From Craspedostauros australis (lineage: Eukaryota), in contig JALAGF010004012.1 in the NCBI GenBank assembly GCA_030167865.1, forward strand, positions 1 through 64,000: 64,000 nt of DNA, given 5' to 3'. Shown here piece after piece: positions 55,217-64,000 of this stretch. A program made the position numbers and the translations under genes. Positions within the stretch are counted from its first letter, which is position 1. The number at the start of each line of letters is the position of its first letter. The notes beneath the pieces were generated by a model that saw only the letters and a list, made by a program, of their open reading frames with translations, did not search any database and had not been told where the DNA came from.

Positions 55217-56614
55217 TCAAAATGGCCAAGCGCAGGCGCTGCCATCATCACTGGTCTGTGGGACATTGGCAACGTCCAGCTCCCACCCATTCACATGCTC
55301 CCTCAAGAACAGATCGATGTCTGGGATGAACGAACTCGAATCCGATGGCATTACGTCCGATATCTCATGCCCCGCGTCTCCTATGATGACAGTTTTCGTC
55401 ATCCATCTCATGACATTGCGCGTGCACTCCAGCGGTACATTCTTGTCACGTGATGCCAATATGAGGAGGGTAGGGATCTTTGTCGATGGTCCTGTTTCTC
55501 TTGTCGCTTCATCATCGCTCGTGTTGACATCGCTGCTGCTATCATTCTTCCAGCACTCTGCCAAGTCTTGCCCAGCTATCTCCATCACCTCATTTGTTTC
55601 CCAGTACTGCATCTGGGTATCCAGAATGTATTGTGCAGTCTGCGGTGGATGTCGCAGACCGTCGTATATGTCTTTCCTATCCGATGCCCCGGGGGAACCT
55701 GCTATGCAATGCTGCAAATACACAGCACGAGATTGGGGATGCGAGACGGGACACAACGGGATGCAAAAGTCAATCCCATGCCCTGGCTTTGGTTTGGCGC
55801 CTGCATCAGCATCTGCATCTGTACATGCCAACTGTCGCATGACTTCCAACGCGAAGTAGCCGCCGCTGCTGCTGCCCATAACGCCAAATGGTACGCTGGC
55901 AGTAGTCGACAGCGTTTGACTGAACGCGGCCAAGGATTTGAGATCTTGCAGTGTCTTTCCAGTCTCGTGCGTCGTTACCGAACCGTCCCGGAAGGTTGCC
56001 GTGACCACGGTCATTCGCAGCTGTTTCACCAATGCTCGGGTGATGGTCTCGTGGCTGTCGTAATCGCCCTGGCTGAACATCCAGCCATGGATGAAGAACA
56101 CGACAGCAGATGCTTGCGTTGGCTTCGTTGTGCGGACGTCGAGCGGTGACCATATCTTGATCGGAATGCCGTGTCCATCCTCCTGACTTTCGACTGTCGA
56201 CATCTCTGTATGCACGGATGTGGTCAATGCTATCCGCTGGAATGACTCGGTTGGTCGTCTGCTACCTCCATCGCTCTGTTGCGTGTCGCTACATCTGCTT
56301 CCCGATGCTCCCATGCTGTCTGCGTGACACCGACCAACTGATGAAGCAAGCTGGTGATGATGACCAAGTCTGTGGCCGTAGCTTTGGCCGTGGCTGTGGC
56401 AGTGGTAGTTGTTGTTGTTGTTGTAGCTGCGCCCGAACCTACGTCCGCAATAATATGGCTGCGACGTGGAAGACCGAGCACGCACGAGCAGCACCGACGA
56501 ATCTGTGATAAATGAGGCTCTGGCAGTGCTCTGCGATTTAAACGCAATGAGCGCAAACGAGGAAAGCAGCACTGACCAATGACGCTTCAGCCGTCTTTGC
56601 AACCGATTCACCAT
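55217..56614 (-). CDS. Alpha/beta hydrolase (HSL-like esterase) with N-terminal targeting-like leader
   Basis: VFFIHGWMF oxyanion motif, GSSSGG nucleophile elbow, PTLLILASRDKNVP (Asp), AGHEI (His). Start uncertain. Confidence 0.82.
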   Translation of the reverse strand: MVNRLQRRLKRHWSVLLSSFALIAFKSQSTARASFITDSSVLLVRARSSTSQPYYCGRRFGRSYNNNNNYHCHSHGQSYGHRLGHHHQLASSVGRCHADSMGASGSRCSDTQQSDGGSRRPTESFQRIALTTSVHTEMSTVESQEDGHGIPIKIWSPLDVRTTKPTQASAVVFFIHGWMFSQGDYDSHETITRALVKQLRMTVVTATFRDGSVTTHETGKTLQDLKSLAAFSQTLSTTASVPFGVMGSSSGGYFALEVMRQLACTDADADAGAKPKPGHGIDFCIPLCPVSHPQSRAVYLQHCIAGSPGASDRKDIYDGLRHPPQTAQYILDTQMQYWETNEVMEIAGQDLAECWKNDSSSDVNTSDDEATRETGPSTKIPTLLILASRDKNVPLECTRNVMRWMTKTVIIGDAGHEISDVMPSDSSSFIPDIDLFLREHVNGWELDVANVPQTSDDGSACAWPF

Positions 56615-57259
56615 CAGCGTCAACACCTGCAGCAGTGCGACCCTCGTATGGTACCATACGATAGAATAGGGTTGGTAGAGTCTGATACATGTAGACGTCT
56701 CGTGGGTGTTGTGGGCACCTCCTCGTTGATGTCCTGTGGTGGGTGTGATCATCATCGCCGCCACCCCCTTCTCTGCCAGTGTTGGGCAACATCCGAACGA
56801 GAGTGTTCGCATTCTCGTGATTGCTCGTGACCCACGTTGCAACCAGTCATGAGTTGGTGTCAAATACAAGAGAACATGTTGAAGACAAGCTATCTGATCG
56901 CAACTAGAAATGTTAACAACTCCATTGGAGCGCCAACCAGAGTTTCAGCCATCCGCCCGCAAAAGTAGAGTCCTCACGCTCTCAGGATTGTGCTGGTACC
57001 CTTGGTTGAATACGACTAATCCTCGTTTGGGGCAGGATGTTTTGTGTAGTTGGTATGGGTATGGTACGATTATTTGTTTGCTAATGTTCTACACGTATTA
57101 TGCGATCTTCGTTCTACGGTTTCATTCCATTGATGCGTTTACGGTGAGCAGTACTGACATCGAAGGTGCTCGAATTTACGAGGGATGGATGTGATGAGCT
57201 GAGACCTTGAGAATGACATTGGGCGATGCAGGCTTGGACTGGTGTTGTGTTGCCTTTCT

Positions 57260-60200
57260 TCAGACAATGCCACCGTTGTCGCCCACGCCATCCTTGCTTT
57301 GGGCCTGCTCCTCCTCCTCTTCTGCGAGGTCATCGGAGAATTCGATTTCGATCATTTGTTCGCCGCATTGGTCGTGCTGTTCCTTCTTTGGCGTGTCGGT
57401 GGCAGCATCATCGCGCTGGGCATCGTGATCGGTGCCACTGGGACTGGAAAGCGATCGCTCGAAGGTGACCCTTGGGCTCCTGACGTTGCCGCCCTTCTTT
57501 TTCATGTGGCCGGTGGCGCCAGTGATGGGCGTGCTGCTTTCGATCGATTGGGACCTGCGGAACATGGCCTTGGGCTTGCCAGGCGATGCGAGAAGTCGCT
57601 TCGAATCTCCATGATCCGATCCCATCGAGGTTGACTTGAGGTATGCGCGACGGTGGCCGCTCGAGGGTGACATTCCAGCGGATGACGATCTGTAGTTGCT
57701 CGCCTTGGGAAGCGGTTCTATGTGACCGAACACGGAGCCGCGTCTGGATGGTTTGTCATGATGGACGACCTCCAGGTAATCTCGGAGCTCCTCACTGTCA
57801 TCGTTTCCGAAATGCGGAAGGCTCTCCTTGAGCTGGCTCTTGCCGCAAATGCGGCAGATGGTCTGTGCCCACTGGAAGGCGATGTTCTTGGTGAGGTGAC
57901 CCTGCTTCTCGTTCTCCTCCACCATGCGGTCCAGATGATGCTCGACGTCTTCGAGGTCGGTGTAGAAACGGAGCAACAGCGTGCCCTGTTCTGACACGAG
58001 CTTGAGCCGATCCTCCTTGATCTTGTGCCAGCGGAGATGGCGTGGCATGCTTGGGGTGACGTCCACTGGTTGCAAGGCAGAAGCAAGAACTTCGTCGACA
58101 TCCTTCTGGGAAGCATCGCTGTTGATGTTTTTGTTGTTGGCTGTCTTCTCCCAGAACTCGACGCGAGGTTCTGCACCCATGAAGTCGAAGTCGAAATGTT
58201 CGCTGAGGTCGGAGATATCATCGATTGGCATGTCGCGTTCGACATGCACCTCGCTGATTTCGGAGAGGTTCATGTGACCGACGATCTTTCGCCCCCTGGT
58301 GATGTCGCAAAGACGCAGGCCCTTGCCTCCCTTGGTGGCCTGGAGTGCCTGCAGGGCAGCATCCATGTTGTTGGACATCGCCTGGTCGTCACTGACCTCG
58401 AGGTAGACGATTTCGAACTGAGTCATGATGACATCAACCGGCACCCATGTGTCCAGAAGCGGCAGCAAACGGCGGTCACAACGGCGCATGGATCGGACAA
58501 TTCGTGCGCTGGGTGCGACGTAGGTGGAGAATTCATCCTCCCCTGCAGCTTCGTATGCCAGGCGCTCCAAGTCAACCTCGAACTCCAAAGGCTTCACGAT
58601 TCGGGGCATGCCATCGGCGTGCTTGGGCGGTGTGGGGTCGAGGAGTGACACAGTGCCAACGCATGACTTCACTGGCTTTCCGAGCTTTCCGGCGATGATG
58701 ATGCCCTGGGACTCGACAGGCAGCTGCGCGTAGCGGGAGCCGATGAGTTTGAGGCGTTGCGCCGGTGCCGCGGAAGCGGCTGCTGCTCCCGAGCCTGCGT
58801 TTTTGGCAGCACCAGTGCCGTCCAGGTTGCTGATCAGGTGCGGCTGTTCGTCACCCTTCGATGGTCTGTTGTCTTCGCTGCCACGGCCTGAAATGTCGTT
58901 GAGGATTGGACCGCTGCTCAACTTTGGATCCTCCAGCTCCAAACCAAGCATCGCTCGGAACAGCTCTCCGCTGAACTCGCCATGCTTGGCGACGATGTCT
59001 GGGTACTTCATGACGGCCTTGTGCCAAAGCTCCAAGGCGCTGCCGCGCTCCTCGGTCATCGCTGTGCGCTCAGAGTCTGCGCCCAGGAGAAGTTCGCGGA
59101 AGGGCGACCTCTCCGTCTTGACGTGGTTGAGACTGTTCGAGATGTGCGCGCCATTCTTGGTTTCGCTGTCCTCGACGGATGTATCCTCCTGTCTCTGCTC
59201 GCCGGAGTTGGTCCAATCGACGATCAACCGTGCGATCATGAATCGGAAGACGCGCAGGGCGATCAGGCCAGTGTACGGTTCGATGTGGCCGAGGCCACCG
59301 TAGGTGCGGACTCCCCATGCCCGGCACACACAGAGGTAGATTGGATCGTAAAGGTTGTGCAGGTACGGATCGTAGTCGTCGTCGCCCTTGTCGTAATCCC
59401 CTGCCAGTCTTCTGTAGGATGGATCGCCCTCCAGGTACGAGCTGGGGGTGGTCTCTGCTTTGTCGCTGCCCGATTCGTAGCCAGATGCGCCGTTGTAGCT
59501 GCTGTCGCCGCCCTCGCAGCACCGCTCAGACTCTGCGTAAACCAGGATAGCCAAGCATGTGGAGGACAAGATCAAATCGATTGCGGCTGCGATCACTGCT
59601 ATGCGCTCGCTCTTCGGGCTCGTCGTCTTGAACCGCATCAACCCAAGGACGATGAGAGATGCGATGATGAAGAAGATGTACCACACTGATTCCCACCAGA
59701 AGCTGACGCCGATCCTGAGCTCCCACGTCTGGTCACTGTTATCCAGGATCTTCTCCAGGGCCAGGAACGATTCGATGCGATTACCGATGAGGTAGTACAC
59801 GACGACGCTGCCGAAGACGTGGCTGATCGTGGCGTAGCGCTTGCCCATGAAGTAACGACGCAGGCGCATTCGGATGAGCGCTGGAGACAGCTGGGACATG
59901 AGGTCCGACATTTTGTCGCGCCACGTGCGCTGCACGTATTCGAACCGAACATTGGGCACGTCGGAGGCGGTCGAAGAGACGACCATGTCCACATCCACGT
60001 CGACCTCGGACAATTCGCCGACGGACTTGCCCGAATCCATAGAGGCTCTTTCATCGGAGGCATTGTCGTCCACATCGTCGTTTTTGCCGATGGTATTGTT
60101 GGCGGCCTTGTCAATGTTGGCATTGTTCTGCTTCTTGCCACTTCCGACTGGAACCATGTCAACGATGCGTTCATTTGCGTCATTGTCAGCATTGTTGCTG

Positions 60201-63084
60201 TTGATCCCGCTTCTATCTGTGACATCATCGTTGCCCTCCAGATCGGCATTTGCATCGTGCATGGGGTCATCCTCGTGGTCGGAGTGGTGTTCCTCTTGCA
60301 ACGGTCCGAGTCCACCCGGCAAGCCAGTATCCTGGACGGAATGATCCCGCCAGGACTGGATGATAGCAGACGCGGACACAGCCTTGTGACGGCTTGCACG
60401 GCGCGCTGCCTTGCGGTCGGCCCGTGTTGCAGGTCGTGTACCTCTCGCACCATGTACAGCAGCGATAGCAGCGGGCGTGTCACTTGCGCCAGCCTTGTTC
60501 AAACGGTCCAACGCGGAATCATCGAACGCTCTGTTGCCCATGTCCGCGCGATCCAAATGCGAGGCCTTGGTTCGCGGTGCAGATCCGAAGAAGTTGTCGT
60601 CGTTGTGCTCGTCGACACTTCCGAGGCCATTGGCCGTCCGGCCATTGTCAGAATCGAAGGAGCTGCTATTGGTGCTGGCCGTTCTGGATTGCAGGAAGCT
60701 TGGCGTTCCCATGGTTCGCATCATGGCAACACCATCCGACACAGTCTTGCGGTTGCGACGACGCGCCCGCGCTCGTTCCTGACGCGTTTGCAAGATGTTC
60801 CGCTCTTCTTCCGGCAAGCGTGATCGAAGCGCATCGGTGTCCGTCTTGACAAGTTTTGCCAGGAGCTGGGTCTTGTCGGACTCATCCTGCATCTGCTGCA
60901 TCTGGAATATGGCGCCGGTCTTGCGATCCGCGCTGAGTGACTTCGTCAAGGGCCTCGCTCTCTGCGCACGGCTTCCAAAGCTCGCGCGCGTTTCTATGGT
61001 CATGTCGTCTTGGTAACCGCCGGCGGCGCTGTTGGTGCCTGCGACGGTGTTCTCCGCTGCTGCGTTGGTGCTGCTGCAGAACATGACACCGCCGCGCCCA
61101 TCCTGCAACATGAGCTCTCCTTCCTGCTGCTGCAAGATGGCGCGCAGCAACTTCTTTCGCTGCTGTTCACGCTGCGCCTTTGCGAGCTCGTGCTGCGCCA
61201 ATGTTTGCTGCAGGTGCTTGGTTCGGATGAGATGTCCCATGCTGGTGCAGAGGGTGTACTGCGGGATGACCTTGCCCATGATGAAGCAGAAGACAGCGTA
61301 GCAGGACAGGACGGAGATGAGGAAGTAGTACCACTCGATGGCTGCCTCCTTGGCGAGGTTCTGCCAGTAGATGAGGAGGAAGGCCAGGCAGATGGCGTAG
61401 CCGAACTGCATGACCTGGATGAGCGCGATGACGAGGTGCGGGTCACCTTGCCAGAACAGGTCGCGCTGCTGCTGCTTGTGGTATTGCTCCTCCTCTTCTC
61501 TCATGGACATACCGGGACGTTTCCAGTTGCTGTATTGATGCGTATTGTTTATGGAGGTGAAAGATATGAGCGTGGAGGTGAAGCAATACATGTGAGCTGT
61601 GTCGTGTCGTACTGCGAGGAAAGAGAATATGGAGTGCAATGCGCAGAGCAACTTACATGATGACAGAGAAGATGGATTTCATCTTGTTGTAGACGATGAG
61701 GGAGATGATGATGAAGCCGACGAGCGCCGCGAAGAAGACCGTCTTCATGACGATGCCGATCATCTCTGGATCCTCCGACTCGTAGACGACCATTCCGAGG
61801 ATGTAGTACATGAGGTTGAGGGCGCCGATGAGAAGGAGCCACGCCACGGTGGAGATGTGGACGAGCTTGATGAGGACGGTGGACTCCGCCTTCTTGAGGT
61901 AGTCTGAGACCTTGAGTGTGAGGGGCAGACCGTTGGATTCCAGAAAGTGGATGCGTAGCTGGTGGAATCGCACCTGAATGAGGAGCTGGTTGTACTTGGC
62001 GACCTCCATGGGATAACGGATGTTCATCCAGACGTTTCGCAATGCCTCGCGTATGCCGGAGCATGTGTAGTCAAAGGCGGTGAAGTACTTGCGGTTGTTC
62101 TCCACCATGTTGCGCCTTGTGGTGGTCATGCGCTTGATGTCGCTGTCCGTGGATGCATCGTCGGCGGGGTAGAGGCGGCTGTGCAAGCGTTCGAACTCCT
62201 CGCGGATCTCCACGTAGTGATCAATCTCCAAGGACTCCGTCTGCACCCAAAGCTTGTTGGAGACGCGCCACGACGCGAATGCGAGAAAGACGGACTGGAA
62301 GGCGTTGAAGATGGCGGTGTAGAAGAGGGTGAAGTGAACATCGGCAAAGACGAGCTCTCGTGGGACGTTGAGGTCCTTGTAGTACTTGACGAGGAGGAAG
62401 ATGATGAGTTCCACGATCCCCAGCGTGGACACTGTTGTGTGCGCGTGTGAAGAAGGGGAATGTAGCAGGGTAGAGTAGAGTATGGTGGTGATGCATATGC
62501 AGAGCGATGGTGAGAGGTGGCATAAGGAATGAGGAATGGGTGGGTAGAGAATGCTCCAGCATTGTATGATGGTGATAGAGTAGGAAGAGTGAAGAATGAC
62601 AGACCACGCATCGCACACAAAGCATGGCATGAAGATGGTACTTACGTTCCTCCTTGACACCATCCAGGACGGAATGAAAGAAGGGACGGCCCTTGGCGGC
62701 AACGTCGAGATGATGCTTGACGATCTCCGCAATGATGAGAAGACCGAGCGTGATGATGCCGACGGCCAGGATGGAATAGTCGAGAGGTCTGCGGTACTCC
62801 GGACCTGCCAGCTGACGTTGCGCGTGGTAGTCCTCATGGGTTTGATCGTACTGCGCAAAGAAGTTGACCTCCTCATGAGCACCCTGCGGATACTGGTATT
62901 GATTGTAGTCATTGTATTGATTGTATTGATTGTGTCCATGGTGGTAGTGGTGGTGATGATGGTGGTGGTCCGTTGACACGAATGATGCAGAGAAGATGGA
63001 GGAGAAGAAGGAAAGGATGCTCCAGTCGCCGCTGCCGTTGCTGTCGTTGGAGGAGAAGTACTCGTATCTCGCTCCGGATTCCAT
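57260..63084 (-). CDS. MLO-family 7-TM protein fused to a voltage-sensor-like 4-TM domain and PH-like domain (exons 63084-62646, 62431-61657, 61529-57260; ~1827 aa)
   Basis: GTAAGT...CAG introns at 62645-62432 and 61656-61530 keep frame. MLO-like motifs KEELSTLGIVELII, VHFTLF, LRIHF, DYLKK, DLFWQGDPHLV, IPQYTLCTSMG; second TM bundle ending IALRVFRFMIARL. Confidence 0.82.
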
Positions 63085-64000
63085 CTTGCCTGTCTCTGTC
63101 TGTGTTGTGTGTGTTGTGTGTGGTGTTGTGTTTGGCGTGTTGTGTCGTTTGTTAAGACTGCGCTTTGCCGAAAGGAAGGAAGGAGGGAGAAGAATGAGAT
63201 GAGATAGACCCAATGGAATTGAATGGAATTGGTTGCAGAACAAGAGAGTTGCAGATTGTGAGAGATGGTGAAGGGAGATGCAGATGATGAAAGCGCAATC
63301 GCAGTTGCAGACGCAGTTGATGGTCCAGAAGCAGAAGAAAGTGACGTCCGAGAATACTTGGATGAATGGGCAGATGAATGGACGAAAGGATCGCAGCTTG
63401 GCGGTATTCAATGTGGAGCAATCCAGATACAGGCCAGCTCAACTCAGCTCAGCTCAGCCTGGCTCGGTGCAATGTGCGAAAGAGAAAGGCCACTCACTCT
63501 GTGTCTCTCTGTTGGCTGCGGCCGTAGATGCGGCTGTAGCTGCTTCCACGAGTATTGGCTGACGTATATAATATGTATCTGTATCTGTGTTTGTACACGT
63601 CAACAACCAACAGGGCAGCCACCAAGTCGACGATCGGCAGTCGGAAGCTCGGTCAGAAGCCTGCGTTTGGGAGATGGGATGTGTTGCTATGTGTGCTTGT
63701 TTGTGTGCTTGCGTGTGCCGTTGTGGATGCGATGATGTGCGGGATTATGTGCCGCTTGTCCTCCTTCTGGTGCCTGTTCTCTGAGTAGGTACGAGTACTC
63801 GTGGGTAGGCGTGCCTCCTTCCTGCTGGGCACCTCCTCGACACCTTCTGAACGGCTTCTGAACAGCTTCTGCTTGGTGACGTCTTGACTTCTTCTTGTTG
63901 ACTTGTTGCTGTCGCCGTTGCGAATCTTCCTGAATTTGAGTCAAAGTGGGATCAAGTCGAATCAAGTTGGAATCAAAGTGGAATGGAGGGCGGGGGGACT

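What the first reader, a model, noticed from the sequence alone, without database searches (positions are those of the whole stretch)
57260..63084. MLO channel fused to a voltage-sensor-like domain and a PH-like domain
Seen only after splicing three exons: an MLO-like 7-TM region (~62790-61235), a long disordered linker, then four more TMs (~59865-59220) with acidic residues in the S1-S3 equivalents (RIES, WWES, AIDL) and an S4-like IALRVFRFMIARL, followed by a split beta-rich domain ending AFQWAQTICRIC (~58510-57845, PH-like). Established: plant MLOs are ~500-600-aa calmodulin-regulated Ca2+-permeable channels without such appendages. Inference: a voltage- and/or phosphoinositide-modulated MLO Ca2+ channel architecture that I do not know to be characterised.
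Basis: partly seen in the sequence, partly recalled or inferred. Interest (0 to 1): 0.82.

Follow-up and report, generated by a model that had tools for sequence, protein, structure and literature searches.

The report
Diatom MLO protein with extra modules
A three-exon diatom gene encodes a giant relative of the plant MLO calcium-channel proteins that carries an extra charged four-helix membrane bundle and a PH-type lipid-binding-like domain, an unstudied layout shared across diatoms; whether the bundle senses voltage is open.

Summary
Three GT-AG exons on the minus strand (63084-62646, 62431-61657, 61529-57260) give an 1827-aa protein, and exon 3 alone is one open frame running from MLO helices 6-7 to the C-terminus.

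- **MLO part:** real but divergent. Pfam Mlo scores 25.1 bits against a cut-off of 24.
- **C-terminal domain:** a confident PH fold, best matched by BTK and ARAP3 PH domains, with an invariant Trp in the last helix.
- **Middle four helices:** a confident bundle with invariant buried charges (R989, E991, D1056, R1164, R1167) and F1025.
- **Distribution:** pennate and centric diatoms, including single transcript-derived ORFs.

I found no paper describing it.

Verdict: a real, conserved, undescribed MLO variant. Voltage sensing is plausible (about 0.3) but unproven.

The parts
62646..63084 (-). Exon 1 (aa 1-146 plus one base): His-rich and NQY-repeat N-terminus, MLO TM1 (aa ~104-122) and the first cytosolic loop
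   Evidence: The ATG at 63084 is the first in-frame ATG, and a GTAAGT donor lies at 62645. Homologues align across the junction.
61657..62431 (-). Exon 2 (aa 147-405): MLO TM2-TM5 and the long second cytosolic loop
   Evidence: Acceptor AG is at 62433-62432 and a GTAAGT donor at 61656. Homologue P0019 matches Mlo profile positions 147-383 over this part.
57260..61529 (-). Exon 3 (aa 405-1827 plus stop): MLO TM6-TM7, linker, 4-TM bundle, helical domain, PH-fold domain and tail, all in one open frame
   Evidence: The frame is open for 1472 codons. Acceptor AG is at 61531-61530. Pfam Mlo scores 25.1 bits on residues 19-125 of this exon.
61244..62787 (-). MLO-like 7-TM region, aa ~100-500 (coordinates include both introns)
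   Evidence: Hydrophobic segments are shown. Collinear Mlo profile matches cover positions 147-470 across the family. Residues 147-530 are conserved.
59873..61138 (-). Long, poorly conserved, probably disordered cytosolic linker (aa 536-957) with short conserved basic motifs
   Evidence: Conservation is low except for the motifs. Disorder is inferred from composition and was not tested.
60704..60883 (-). Conserved linker motif 1 (aa 621-680; ...LLAKLVK.DT..LR..LP ... RRRNRKTVSDGVAMMR)
   Evidence: Conserved in 39 of 41 aligned sequences that pass the slice filter. See also the consensus.
60338..60412 (-). Conserved linker motif 2 (aa 778-802; RRASRHKAVSASAIIQSWRD), a second copy of the RRxxRxKxxS pattern
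59174..59872 (-). Family-specific 4-TM bundle (aa 958-1190). Helices are at aa 968-996, 1011-1035, 1044-1073 and 1155-1190. A Cys-rich acidic loop (aa 1074-1154) lies between helices 3 and 4.
   Evidence: AF2 pLDDT is 86-95 on the helices. Invariant or near-invariant residues are R989, E991, F1025, D1056, R1074-C1075-C1076, C1140, R1146, E1155-P1156, R1164 and R1167. The profile finds 238 representatives.
58928..59056 (-). Small conserved helical domain (aa 1230-1272; ALELWHKAVMKYPDIVAKHGEFSGELFRAMLGL)
   Evidence: W1240, G1255, S1258 and M1265-L-G1267 are invariant. pLDDT is 87-90. It always accompanies the bundle unless the protein is truncated.
57734..58771 (-). C-terminal globular domain (aa 1325-1670). 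The PH-fold core is aa ~1413-1637 (window 57833-58507), split by a low-confidence insert (aa ~1505-1570).
57263..57733 (-). Poorly conserved Ser/basic-rich C-terminal tail (aa 1671-1827)

Best explanation
This is one gene and one 1827-aa membrane protein of a diatom-wide family. It has five parts.

1. A divergent MLO-type 7-TM body lies at the N-terminus. By homology to plant MLOs it is the likeliest ion-conducting (Ca2+-permeable) part. This is inferred.
2. A cytosolic linker of about 420 aa is probably disordered. It carries conserved RRxxRxKxxS motifs, which I take to be kinase or calmodulin control sites. This is inferred.
3. A family-specific four-helix membrane bundle holds a buried network of invariant charges. 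R989 and E991 sit at the outer end of helix 1. F1025 sits mid-helix 2. D1056 sits mid-helix 3. R1164 and R1167 lie three residues apart on helix 4. An extracellular Cys-rich loop joins helices 3 and 4.
4. A small helical domain follows.
5. A split PH-fold domain carries a conserved basic surface.

The topology is self-consistent. Seven helices (N-terminus out, C-terminus in) plus four helices place the Cys-rich loop outside and the PH domain in the cytosol.

My reading is that the bundle, helical domain and PH domain form a built-in regulatory sensor for the MLO body. The PH-fold domain docks on anionic inner-leaflet lipids. The charged bundle reports a membrane-delimited signal. Voltage is the single most likely signal (about 0.3-0.35), but the bundle is not a demonstrable homologue of canonical voltage sensors (descent from them about 0.15).

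Shown here: the gene model, the single ORF, the MLO relationship, the bundle, the PH fold, and conservation across diatoms. Inferred: ion conduction, lipid binding, voltage sensing and regulation through the linker.
For: **Gene model and single ORF:**

**MLO relationship**
- Pfam Mlo scores 25.1 bits (cut-off 24) on exon 3.
- Mlo is the only recurrent family in full-length homologues. It matches 5 of 6 at E<=0.1 and 14 of 25 at E<=0.01.
- 3 of these 31 homologues score above the cut-off.
- The matches are collinear, covering profile positions 147-470.

**Family and architecture**
- 40 homologues were found at E<=1e-3; the best is 56% identical over 100% of exon 3.
- The bundle profile finds 238 representatives at E<=1e-3 among 1.84 billion proteins.
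- Of the 172 proteins held, 58 show the whole order MLO_N-MLO_C-linker-bundle-helical-PH, and 115 carry an MLO part.
- No other domain partner was seen.

**Organisms and transcripts**
- Named sources are pennate and centric diatoms.
- Transcript-derived ORFs of 1503 and 1587 aa span MLO to PH.

**Bundle**
- AF2 pLDDT is 86-95 on four long helices.
- R989, D1056 and R1164 are conserved in 41 of 41 sequences. E991, F1025 and R1167 are conserved in 40 of 41.

**PH fold:**. W1625 is invariant, and R1417, R1420, R1421, R1424, K1474, R1477 and R1485 are conserved.

**MLOs as Ca2+ channels:** the abstracts of PMC9810639 and PMC10980356 (seen in the listing), and passages of 10.64898/2026.04.10.716904.
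Against: **Function**
- No functional datum exists for any member of the family.

**MLO match**
- The MLO match is marginal. 11 of 25 full-length members show no Mlo hit at E<=0.01.
- The four extracellular cysteines conserved in land-plant MLOs are absent. The TM2-TM3 and TM6-TM7 outer loops of the query hold no Cys.

**Voltage sensing**
- No Ion_trans or other sensor family matches at E<=10 in 13 bundle sequences, nor in 32 longer sequences.
- The family profile finds no channel among PDB sequences.
- hhalign against a 35-sequence bacterial sensor profile gives 0.7%. Negative controls give 0.1-1.8%. A distant true Ion_trans protein gives 91.9%.
- Foldseek finds no hit at E<=1e-3.
- Only two basic residues sit in the every-third register. 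The third (R/K1172, 27 of 41) is at +5. The outer S2 acid is E in only 15 of 41 sequences.

**PH domain**
- The PH domain has no Pfam PH match, and its lipid-binding motif register is not established.
Confidence: 0.55

Rival explanations
1. The bundle is a true, very divergent homologue of S1-S4 voltage sensors, and the protein is a voltage-gated (and phosphoinositide-modulated) MLO Ca2+ channel.
For: - The bundle has the S1-S4 layout, with both ends cytosolic (topology inferred).
- R1164-x-x-R1167 are invariant on helix 4, D1056 is invariant mid-helix 3, and F1025 is near-invariant on helix 2, exactly 7 residues after E/Q1018. The comparison with the voltage-sensor charge-transfer layout is recalled, not tested.
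Against: - No sequence or profile method sees the relationship.
- The 238-member profile search does not spill into the very large Ion_trans family.
- Generic bundles score higher in VIA, and Foldseek is not significant.
- Only two charges are in register.
- An invariant Arg (R989) on helix 1 is unusual for a voltage sensor (recalled).
- The inner S2 acid is missing. Position 1028 is mostly A/V/G, and position 1029 is D in 13 of 41.
Confidence: 0.2
2. The bundle is not a voltage sensor. It is a structural, assembly or receptor-like module. Its buried salt bridges hold the helices together or dock them on the MLO helices. The disulfide-rich extracellular loop binds an external ligand or cell-wall component. 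The PH domain only tethers the tail to the membrane.
For: - The loop between helices 3 and 4 carries invariant R1074-C1075-C1076 and near-invariant C1140, plus the invariant motif G1144-x-R1146...E1155-P1156. That is more conservation than a simple linker needs.
- The fold match is no better than that of generic four-helix bundles.
- There is no homology to sensors.
Against: - The loop is predicted with low confidence (pLDDT 43-66), and its length varies widely between members.
- Paired invariant arginines three residues apart inside a membrane helix are costly to keep unless functional (inference).
Confidence: 0.2
3. The MLO body does not conduct ions here. The protein is a membrane scaffold for polarised secretion or membrane-domain organisation, which is a role also discussed for plant MLOs. 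The PH-fold domain recruits it to phosphoinositide patches.
For: [quoted passage not shown]
- PMC10980356 (abstract) links MLO to exocyst EXO70.
- The diatom family lacks the conserved plant extracellular cysteines.
Against: - TM3-TM7 of the MLO core remain recognisably conserved.
Confidence: 0.12
4. The fusion is an annotation or reading artefact, and two adjacent genes have been joined.
For: No RNA run was available for this organism, so the transcript was not seen directly.
Against: - One frame is open for 1472 codons from MLO TM6 to the C-terminus.
- 58 of the 172 proteins held show the complete order.
- Transcriptome-derived ORFs span all parts.
- The Seminavis robusta member is named 'expressed unknown protein'.
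Confidence: 0.03

Closest known systems
Land-plant MLO proteins (barley Mlo, Arabidopsis MLO family; Pfam PF03094)
   Same: - Seven hydrophobic helices are present.
- Collinear profile matches cover TM3-TM7.
- The ...ELxxLGxxE... motif before TM2 and the LFW...P..V...IQ...F motif before TM6 are present. I read these; the comparison with plant motifs is recalled.
- The tail after TM7 is cytosolic.
   Different: - The protein is about three times longer.
- The match is marginal: 25.1 bits against a cut-off of 24.
- The outer loops lack the four conserved cysteines.
- No Trp-containing calmodulin-binding helix is evident after TM7.
- It carries a further 4-TM bundle, a helical domain and a PH-fold domain.
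MLO-EF-hand and other 'Rosetta stone' MLO fusions (Kusch et al. 2016, PMC4824068; passages read)
   Same: These are non-land-plant MLO-like proteins with diverse topologies and C-terminal fusions, partly on intron-free ORFs.
   Different: - The partners reported there are EF-hands, glycosyl hydrolase, RNase H-like, LEA, zinc-finger domains and a mechanosensitive channel.
- The word 'diatom' occurs 0 times in the main text.
- I did not see its supplementary files, which list the non-plant sequences.
Voltage-sensing phosphatase Ci-VSP/TPTE and other pore-less voltage sensors (Hv1)
   Same: - A four-helix bundle has cytosolic ends followed by a cytosolic lipid-directed domain.
   Different: - There is no sequence homology.
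- Only two arginines are in register.
- The effector here would be an MLO body lying N-terminal to the bundle, and the cytosolic domain has a PH fold, not a phosphatase-C2.
PH domains of BTK/Tec, ARAP3, TAPP1 and DAPP1
   Same: - The fold is a beta-sandwich capped by a C-terminal helix with an invariant Trp.
- Conserved basic residues lie on the first strands.
   Different: - Sequence identity is 8-14%, with no Pfam PH match.
- The domain is split by an insert of about 65 residues.
- It has an extra conserved Gly-rich basic loop (TKGGKGLRLCD) and an N-terminal alpha/beta extension of about 85 residues.
- Lipid binding is untested.
Bacterial pore-less voltage sensor fused to a bacterial PH module
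   Same: The idea is the same: a four-helix sensor joined to a PH-type module.
   Different: Those notes describe genuine Ion_trans-type sensors and bacterial YdbS/YdbT-type PH modules in ultra-small bacteria, with no MLO. I did not compare the sequences.

Membership tests
MLO (Pfam PF03094) | Match to the Mlo profile at or above the curated cut-off (24 bits) | tested here: met
   Exon 3 alone scores 25.1 bits, E 7.3e-6, on profile positions 342-449 of 483. Among 31 full-length homologues, 3 score above the cut-off (32, 31 and 35.6 bits) and 19 match at E<=0.1 or E<=0.01. The match is marginal but recurrent and collinear.
MLO (Pfam PF03094) | Seven transmembrane helices with a cytosolic C-terminus | tested here: met
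   Hydrophobic segments fall at aa ~104-122, 148-166, 179-201, 335-360, 371-395, 438-458 and 471-493. TM3 falls below the hydropathy cut-off used and was read from the sequence. Orientation is inferred from the positive-inside pattern and was not measured.
MLO (Pfam PF03094) | Four conserved extracellular cysteines (C86, C98, C114 and C367 of barley Mlo; passages of 10.64898/2026.04.10.716904) | tested here: not met
   The outer loops aa 167-178 and 459-470 of the query contain no Cys.
MLO (Pfam PF03094) | Calmodulin-binding amphipathic helix with a conserved Trp just after TM7 (Kusch 2016 passage) | tested here: inconclusive
   A conserved basic helix-like stretch follows TM7 (aa 494-535), but it holds no Trp. 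Calmodulin binding was not tested.
MLO (Pfam PF03094) | Ca2+-permeable channel activity | not testable with these tools
   This needs electrophysiology or Ca2+ imaging.
Voltage-sensor domain (S1-S4 of Ion_trans PF00520, VSP, Hv1) | Sequence or profile homology to known sensors | tested here: not met
   No Ion_trans match at E<=1, E<=0.1 or 0.01 or E<=10 on 13 bundle-only sequences. hhalign gives 0.7% against controls of 0.1-1.8%, with a positive control of 91.9%. PDB sequences give none. The profile search finds 238 hits, and all 150 listed are family members.
Voltage-sensor domain (S1-S4 of Ion_trans PF00520, VSP, Hv1) | Four antiparallel membrane helices structurally superposable on S1-S4, clearly above generic bundles | tested here: inconclusive
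Voltage-sensor domain (S1-S4 of Ion_trans PF00520, VSP, Hv1) | S4 with three or more basic residues at every third position | tested here: inconclusive
   R1164 (41 of 41) and R1167 (40 of 41, plus 1 Lys) are three apart. Position 1170 is hydrophobic. The next basic residue is R/K1172 (27 of 41) at +5.
Voltage-sensor domain (S1-S4 of Ion_trans PF00520, VSP, Hv1) | Counter-charges and an aromatic 'plug' on S1-S3 | tested here: inconclusive
   E991 is conserved in 40 of 41, F1025 in 40 of 41 and D1056 in 41 of 41. E/Q1018 occurs in 25 of 41. No conserved inner S2 acid is present. I could not inspect the side-chain geometry of the model.
Voltage-sensor domain (S1-S4 of Ion_trans PF00520, VSP, Hv1) | Voltage-dependent charge movement | not testable with these tools
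   This needs gating-current recording or voltage-clamp fluorometry.
PH-domain superfold | Seven-stranded beta-sandwich capped by a C-terminal alpha-helix | tested here: met
PH-domain superfold | Invariant Trp in the C-terminal helix (recalled hallmark) | tested here: met
   W1625 in IAFQWAQTI is invariant in 41 of 41 sequences and lies in model helix 297-313.
PH-domain superfold | Match to a Pfam PH family | tested here: not met
   No PH family is listed for exon 3 at E<=1, nor for 31 full-length homologues.
PH-domain superfold | Phosphoinositide-binding basic motif on strands 1-2, and actual lipid binding | tested here: inconclusive
   R1417, R1420, R1421 and R1424 are conserved on strand 1, and K1474, R1477 and R1485 on a Gly-rich loop. 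Their register with the canonical motif is not established, and binding was not tested.
Claudin/PMP-22 or tetraspanin-type 4-TM proteins | Profile match | tested here: not met
   Claudin_2 scores 16.1-16.6 bits against a cut-off of 29.1, in 2 of 13 bundle sequences only. No tetraspanin family is listed.

The most novel reading that the evidence does not exclude
Diatoms possess a voltage- and phosphoinositide-controlled MLO-type Ca2+ channel. A charged four-helix bundle is either an extremely divergent S1-S4 sensor or an independent invention of one. It is wired to a pore from a different family (MLO) and to a PH-type lipid reader. This would be a new class of excitable-membrane channel in a major phytoplankton group.
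Probability: 0.2. Interest if true: 0.85.

Novelty: new variant of a known kind. Interest (0 to 1): 0.6.

Why it matters
**For MLO biology.** Plant MLOs have only recently been treated as Ca2+ channels, and how they gate is debated. A natural 'Rosetta stone' fusion tells which kinds of regulator an MLO body can be coupled to. Here the fused parts are a charged membrane bundle, a PH-fold domain and a basic motif-bearing linker, kept across pennate and centric diatoms.

**For diatom signalling.** Diatoms fire Ca2+-based signals. In the listing, a 2024 survey of diatom Ca2+ channels (PMC11085791) shows 0 occurrences of 'MLO', so this family appears to be an overlooked candidate.

**For channel evolution.** If the bundle does sense voltage, it would show that a voltage sensor can drive a pore outside the classical voltage-gated superfamily. 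If it does not, it defines a new four-helix membrane domain with a conserved buried charge network whose job is unknown.

Tried and rejected
- **RNA evidence.** No RNA holder was listed for window 61300-62800.
- **Own genome.** No whole genome is held for this window, so paralogues and true voltage-gated channels of the same organism could not be compared.
- **ESM Atlas.** The bundle gave no usable hit.
- **Family profile against PDB sequences.** There were 4 hits at E 4.4-8.9, all in the low-complexity linker and none meaningful.
- **Foldseek on the bundle.** There were 0 hits at E<=1e-3 among 84 at E<=10.
- **Pfam on alignment A1.** I replaced it with smaller sets.
- **Internal duplication of MLO helices.** hhalign of the bundle against the MLO region gave 1.8%, so I rejected this.
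- **Tetraspanin or claudin reading of the 4-TM part.** The large Cys-rich loop between helices 3 and 4 prompted it. I rejected it for lack of any profile match. No such fold was listed among the 50 best VIA rows, and that absence is not evidence.
- **Stand-alone bundle-PH proteins.** 26 of 172 proteins show only bundle-helical-PH. Many start inside or just before the bundle, and others carry linker motifs without MLO. I read them as truncated gene models and could not prove it.
- **Model geometry.** Coordinates of the models were not available in the script box, so I could not check whether the helix-4 arginines point into the bundle.
- **Complex prediction.** I did not use it, because no binding claim is made.
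- **Literature.** Five searches found no paper joining MLO and diatoms. 'MLO-like' together with 'diatom' returned 0 papers. Subscription journals and supplementary files were not searched.

Full report

Yes. On the minus strand, a stop-to-stop frame of 1472 codons runs over 57260-61678. Two further frames upstream overlap it in series.

Reading the DNA gives the following gene model.
- The ATG is at 63084, the first in-frame ATG.
- A GTAAGT donor lies at 62645, and an acceptor AG at 62433-62432.
- A second GTAAGT donor lies at 61656, and an acceptor AG at 61531-61530.
- The introns are 214 and 127 nt long.

Splicing inside the script box gives 5484 nt, encoding 1827 aa with only the terminal stop. 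An alternative acceptor at 61612 runs into a stop, so I rejected it.

Homologues align without a gap over both junctions. One of them, P0016, carries an unspliced insert exactly at junction 2, which points to a conserved intron position.

- RIES at aa 989
- WWES at aa 1016
- AIDL at aa 1054
- IALRVFRFMIARL at aa 1161
- AFQWAQTICRIC at aa 1622

Exon 3 alone already joins MLO helices 6-7, the linker, the four extra helices and the C-terminal domain in one open frame. The fusion therefore does not rest on the splice model.

**2. The family**

A search with exon 3 found 40 proteins at E<=1e-3 among 7,999 scored candidates.
- The best, P0001 (1766 aa), is 56% identical over 100% of exon 3. It is 60% identical over aa 53-1820 of the spliced protein.
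- 12 of the 40 carry a precomputed Mlo domain.
- Names given by the sources include 'Mlo family protein [Nitzschia inconspicua]' and a Cylindrotheca fusiformis scaffold.

Conservation along the query falls into distinct blocks:

| Block | Residues |
|---|---|
| MLO region | aa 147-530 |
| Linker motif 1 | aa 621-680 |
| Linker motif 2 | aa 778-802 |
| Four helices | aa 960-1080 and 1135-1180 |
| Helical block | aa 1235-1270 |
| C-terminal domain | aa 1330-1665 |

A profile of the four-helix part alone (alignment A3: the window plus 12 homologue segments) was searched against 1.84 billion representatives.
- It found 238 proteins at E<=1e-3, 201 at E<=1e-10 and 133 at E<=1e-30.
- The 150 listed all look like family members. 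The other 88 were not shown.

I built HMMs of each block and scanned the 172 proteins then held.
- 58 have the whole order MLO_N-MLO_C-linker motif-bundle-helical-PH.
- 38 lack only MLO_N.
- 26 have bundle-helical-PH only.
- The rest are shorter combinations.
- 115 of the 172 carry an MLO part.
- No other partner domain appeared.

Many of the MLO-less proteins start inside or just before the bundle, or keep a linker motif. I read them as truncated gene calls but cannot prove it.

Named members come from pennate and centric diatoms:
- Seminavis robusta ('expressed unknown protein')
- Mayamaea pseudoterrestris
- Odontella aurita
- Attheya sp.
- Proboscia alata

Transcriptome-derived ORFs contain every block on one ORF. 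These are the Odontella aurita protein P0186 (1503 aa) and the MMETSP proteins P0110 and P0205 (1587 aa). No RNA run could be listed for this organism itself.

**3. The MLO part**

Pfam Mlo matches exon 3 at 25.1 bits (cut-off 24), E 7.3e-6, on profile positions 342-449 of 483.

In full-length homologues it is the only recurrent family.
- It matches 5 of 6 at E<=0.1 and 14 of 25 at E<=0.01.
- Three of these 31 score above the cut-off (32, 31 and 35.6 bits).
- The matches are always collinear, within profile positions 147-470 (TM3-TM7).
- Eleven of the 25 show no hit.

The family is therefore a distant MLO branch. It lacks the four extracellular cysteines that land-plant MLOs conserve, since the outer loops at aa 167-178 and 459-470 hold no Cys. 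The plant feature is taken from passages of 10.64898/2026.04.10.716904. Membership is thus 'MLO-like', not canonical.

**4. The C-terminal domain**

AF2 on aa 1325-1670 with the 41-row alignment gave pLDDT 85.6 and pTM 0.83.
- Foldseek against the PDB gave 9 hits at E<=1e-3, all BTK PH or PH-TH. The best has E 1.6e-4, probability 1.0 and target TM-score 0.50-0.56.

The C-terminal helix carries the invariant W1625. No Pfam PH family matches.

Several basic residues are conserved: R1417, R1420, R1421 and R1424 on strand 1, and K1474, R1477 and R1485 on a Gly-rich loop. They fit an anionic-lipid surface, but that is inference.

**5. The four-helix bundle: is it a voltage sensor?**

AF2 on aa 945-1290 gave four long helices at pLDDT 86-95, with a disordered outer loop.

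Column counts over 41 sequences are:

| Residue | Location | Count |
|---|---|---|
| R989 | outer end of helix 1 | 41 of 41 |
| E991 | outer end of helix 1 | 40 of 41 |
| E/Q1018 | helix 2 | 25 of 41 |
| F1025 | helix 2 | 40 of 41 |
| D1056 | mid helix 3 | 41 of 41 |
| R1164 | helix 4 | 41 of 41 |
| R1167 | helix 4 | 40 of 41, plus one Lys |
| R/K1172 | helix 4 | 27 of 41 |

The loop between helices 3 and 4 keeps R1074-C1075-C1076, C1140, G1144, R1146 and E1155-P1156.

The layout and the charge pattern do recall S1-S4: E-x6-F on helix 2, Asp on helix 3 and R-x-x-R on helix 4. The comparison with the classical charge-transfer centre is recalled, not tested.

Every homology test was negative.
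- No Ion_trans match appeared in any Pfam scan, including 13 bundle-only sequences at E<=10.
- The family profile found nothing among PDB sequences.
- The bundle profile did not reach beyond 238 proteins.

I also fetched 35 bacterial Ion_trans channels, cut out their S1-S4 and ran hhalign.

| Comparison | hhalign probability |
|---|---|
| Bundle profile vs sensor profile | 0.7% |
| Bundle, single sequence vs sensor profile | 0.5% |
| MLO region vs sensor profile (negative control) | 1.0% |
| Bundle vs pore region (negative control) | 0.1% |
| Bundle vs MLO region (negative control) | 1.8% |
| Distant cyanobacterial Ion_trans ORF vs sensor profile (positive control) | 91.9% over 87 columns |

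The template covers only bacterial Nav-type sensors, and there is only one positive control.

The structural evidence is equivocal.
- Foldseek found no hit at E<=1e-3. The Ci-VSP sensor ranked 10th at E 4.8.
- Voltage sensors follow: the Nav1.7 VS2 chimera at 9.4, TPC3 at 9.4, Cav1.2 at 9.3, Ci-VSP at 9.3 (124 residues, 4.5 A) and Cav2.2 at 9.1.
- Further rows are NavEh, Cav3.1, KCNQ4, SLC9C1, CatSper, TPC1, TPC2 and NALCN.
- By my count, 15 of the 50 rows are sensors, including one entry titled only 'ion channel'. Two more rows are TRPV2 S1-S4.

The bundle is therefore compatible with the S1-S4 fold but not shown to be one. I could not inspect side-chain geometry, because model coordinates are not exposed.

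**6. How it most likely works**

The topology is coherent. Seven MLO helices (N-terminus out, C-terminus in; recalled for plant MLO) plus four more helices put the acidic, Cys-rich loop outside. Both basic flanks and the PH domain then lie inside, which fits the positive-inside pattern read.

I take the MLO body as the conducting part. This follows from its homology to plant MLO Ca2+ channels (abstracts of PMC9810639 and PMC10980356 in the listing; passages of the 2026 preprint).

I take the bundle, helical domain and PH domain as a built-in sensor and regulator, and the RRxxRxKxxS linker motifs as kinase or calmodulin inputs.

Voltage is the likeliest single input to the bundle (about 0.3-0.35). 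Descent from canonical sensors is less likely (about 0.15). A structural or receptor-like role of the bundle, and a scaffold role of the MLO body, remain open.

**7. Comparison with what is known, and novelty**

Kusch et al. 2016 (PMC4824068; passages read) reported MLO-like proteins with diverse topologies in chromalveolates. They also reported fusions to EF-hands and a few other domains. The main text never mentions diatoms, a PH domain or a voltage sensor. I did not see its supplements.

Five literature searches found no paper joining MLO and diatoms. In the listing, the 2024 survey of diatom Ca2+ channels (PMC11085791) shows 0 occurrences of 'MLO'.

Earlier notes of this scan describe bacterial voltage sensors fused to bacterial PH modules. 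This is an analogy only, and I did not test it.

I rate the finding a new variant of a known kind. It is a real, widely conserved, uncharacterised MLO architecture whose most exciting reading, a voltage-sensing MLO channel, is unproven.

Noticed in passing
window 55220-56944 (-): The next ORF downstream on the same strand (575 codons stop to stop) matches alpha/beta hydrolase fold-3 (Abhydrolase_3) at 25.6 bits against a cut-off of 25. It is a separate gene with no evident link to the MLO gene.
   Followed up: partly
window 62896-62990 (-), aa ~38-65: The N-terminus has a run of His (HHHHHHHYHH) followed by NQY repeats. The repeats are encoded by a 9-nt tandem repeat with 4.2 copies at 62896-62933. 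The stretch is not conserved in homologues. If the N-terminus is extracellular, this could be a metal-binding tail.
   Followed up: no
window 63097-63145: A CA/TG-rich tandem repeat (period 9, 5.6 copies) lies just upstream of the start codon, in the presumed 5' UTR.
   Followed up: no
window 60338-60412 and 60704-60883 (-): The otherwise unconserved linker keeps repeated basic motifs of the form RRxxRxKxxS. The query has two copies, and the family consensus has three. They look like basophilic-kinase or calmodulin sites.
   Followed up: no
P0016, at the position of junction 2 (query aa 405): This homologue's gene call reads through about 25 extra residues exactly where the query has intron 2. 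P0002, P0006 and P0023 start in unrelated sequence just before the same point. This suggests a conserved intron that automatic gene calls often miss.
   Followed up: partly
window 59690-60823 (+) and other long antisense frames: Several open frames of 200-377 codons lie antisense to exon 3. I take them as by-products of the codon bias of a long GC-rich exon, not as genes.
   Followed up: no
window 58073-58132 (-), aa 1466-1485: The PH-fold domain has an almost invariant Gly-rich basic loop (ALQATKGGKGLRLCDxxxGR) between its third and fourth strands. This is unusual for PH domains and may be a phosphate-binding site.
   Followed up: no
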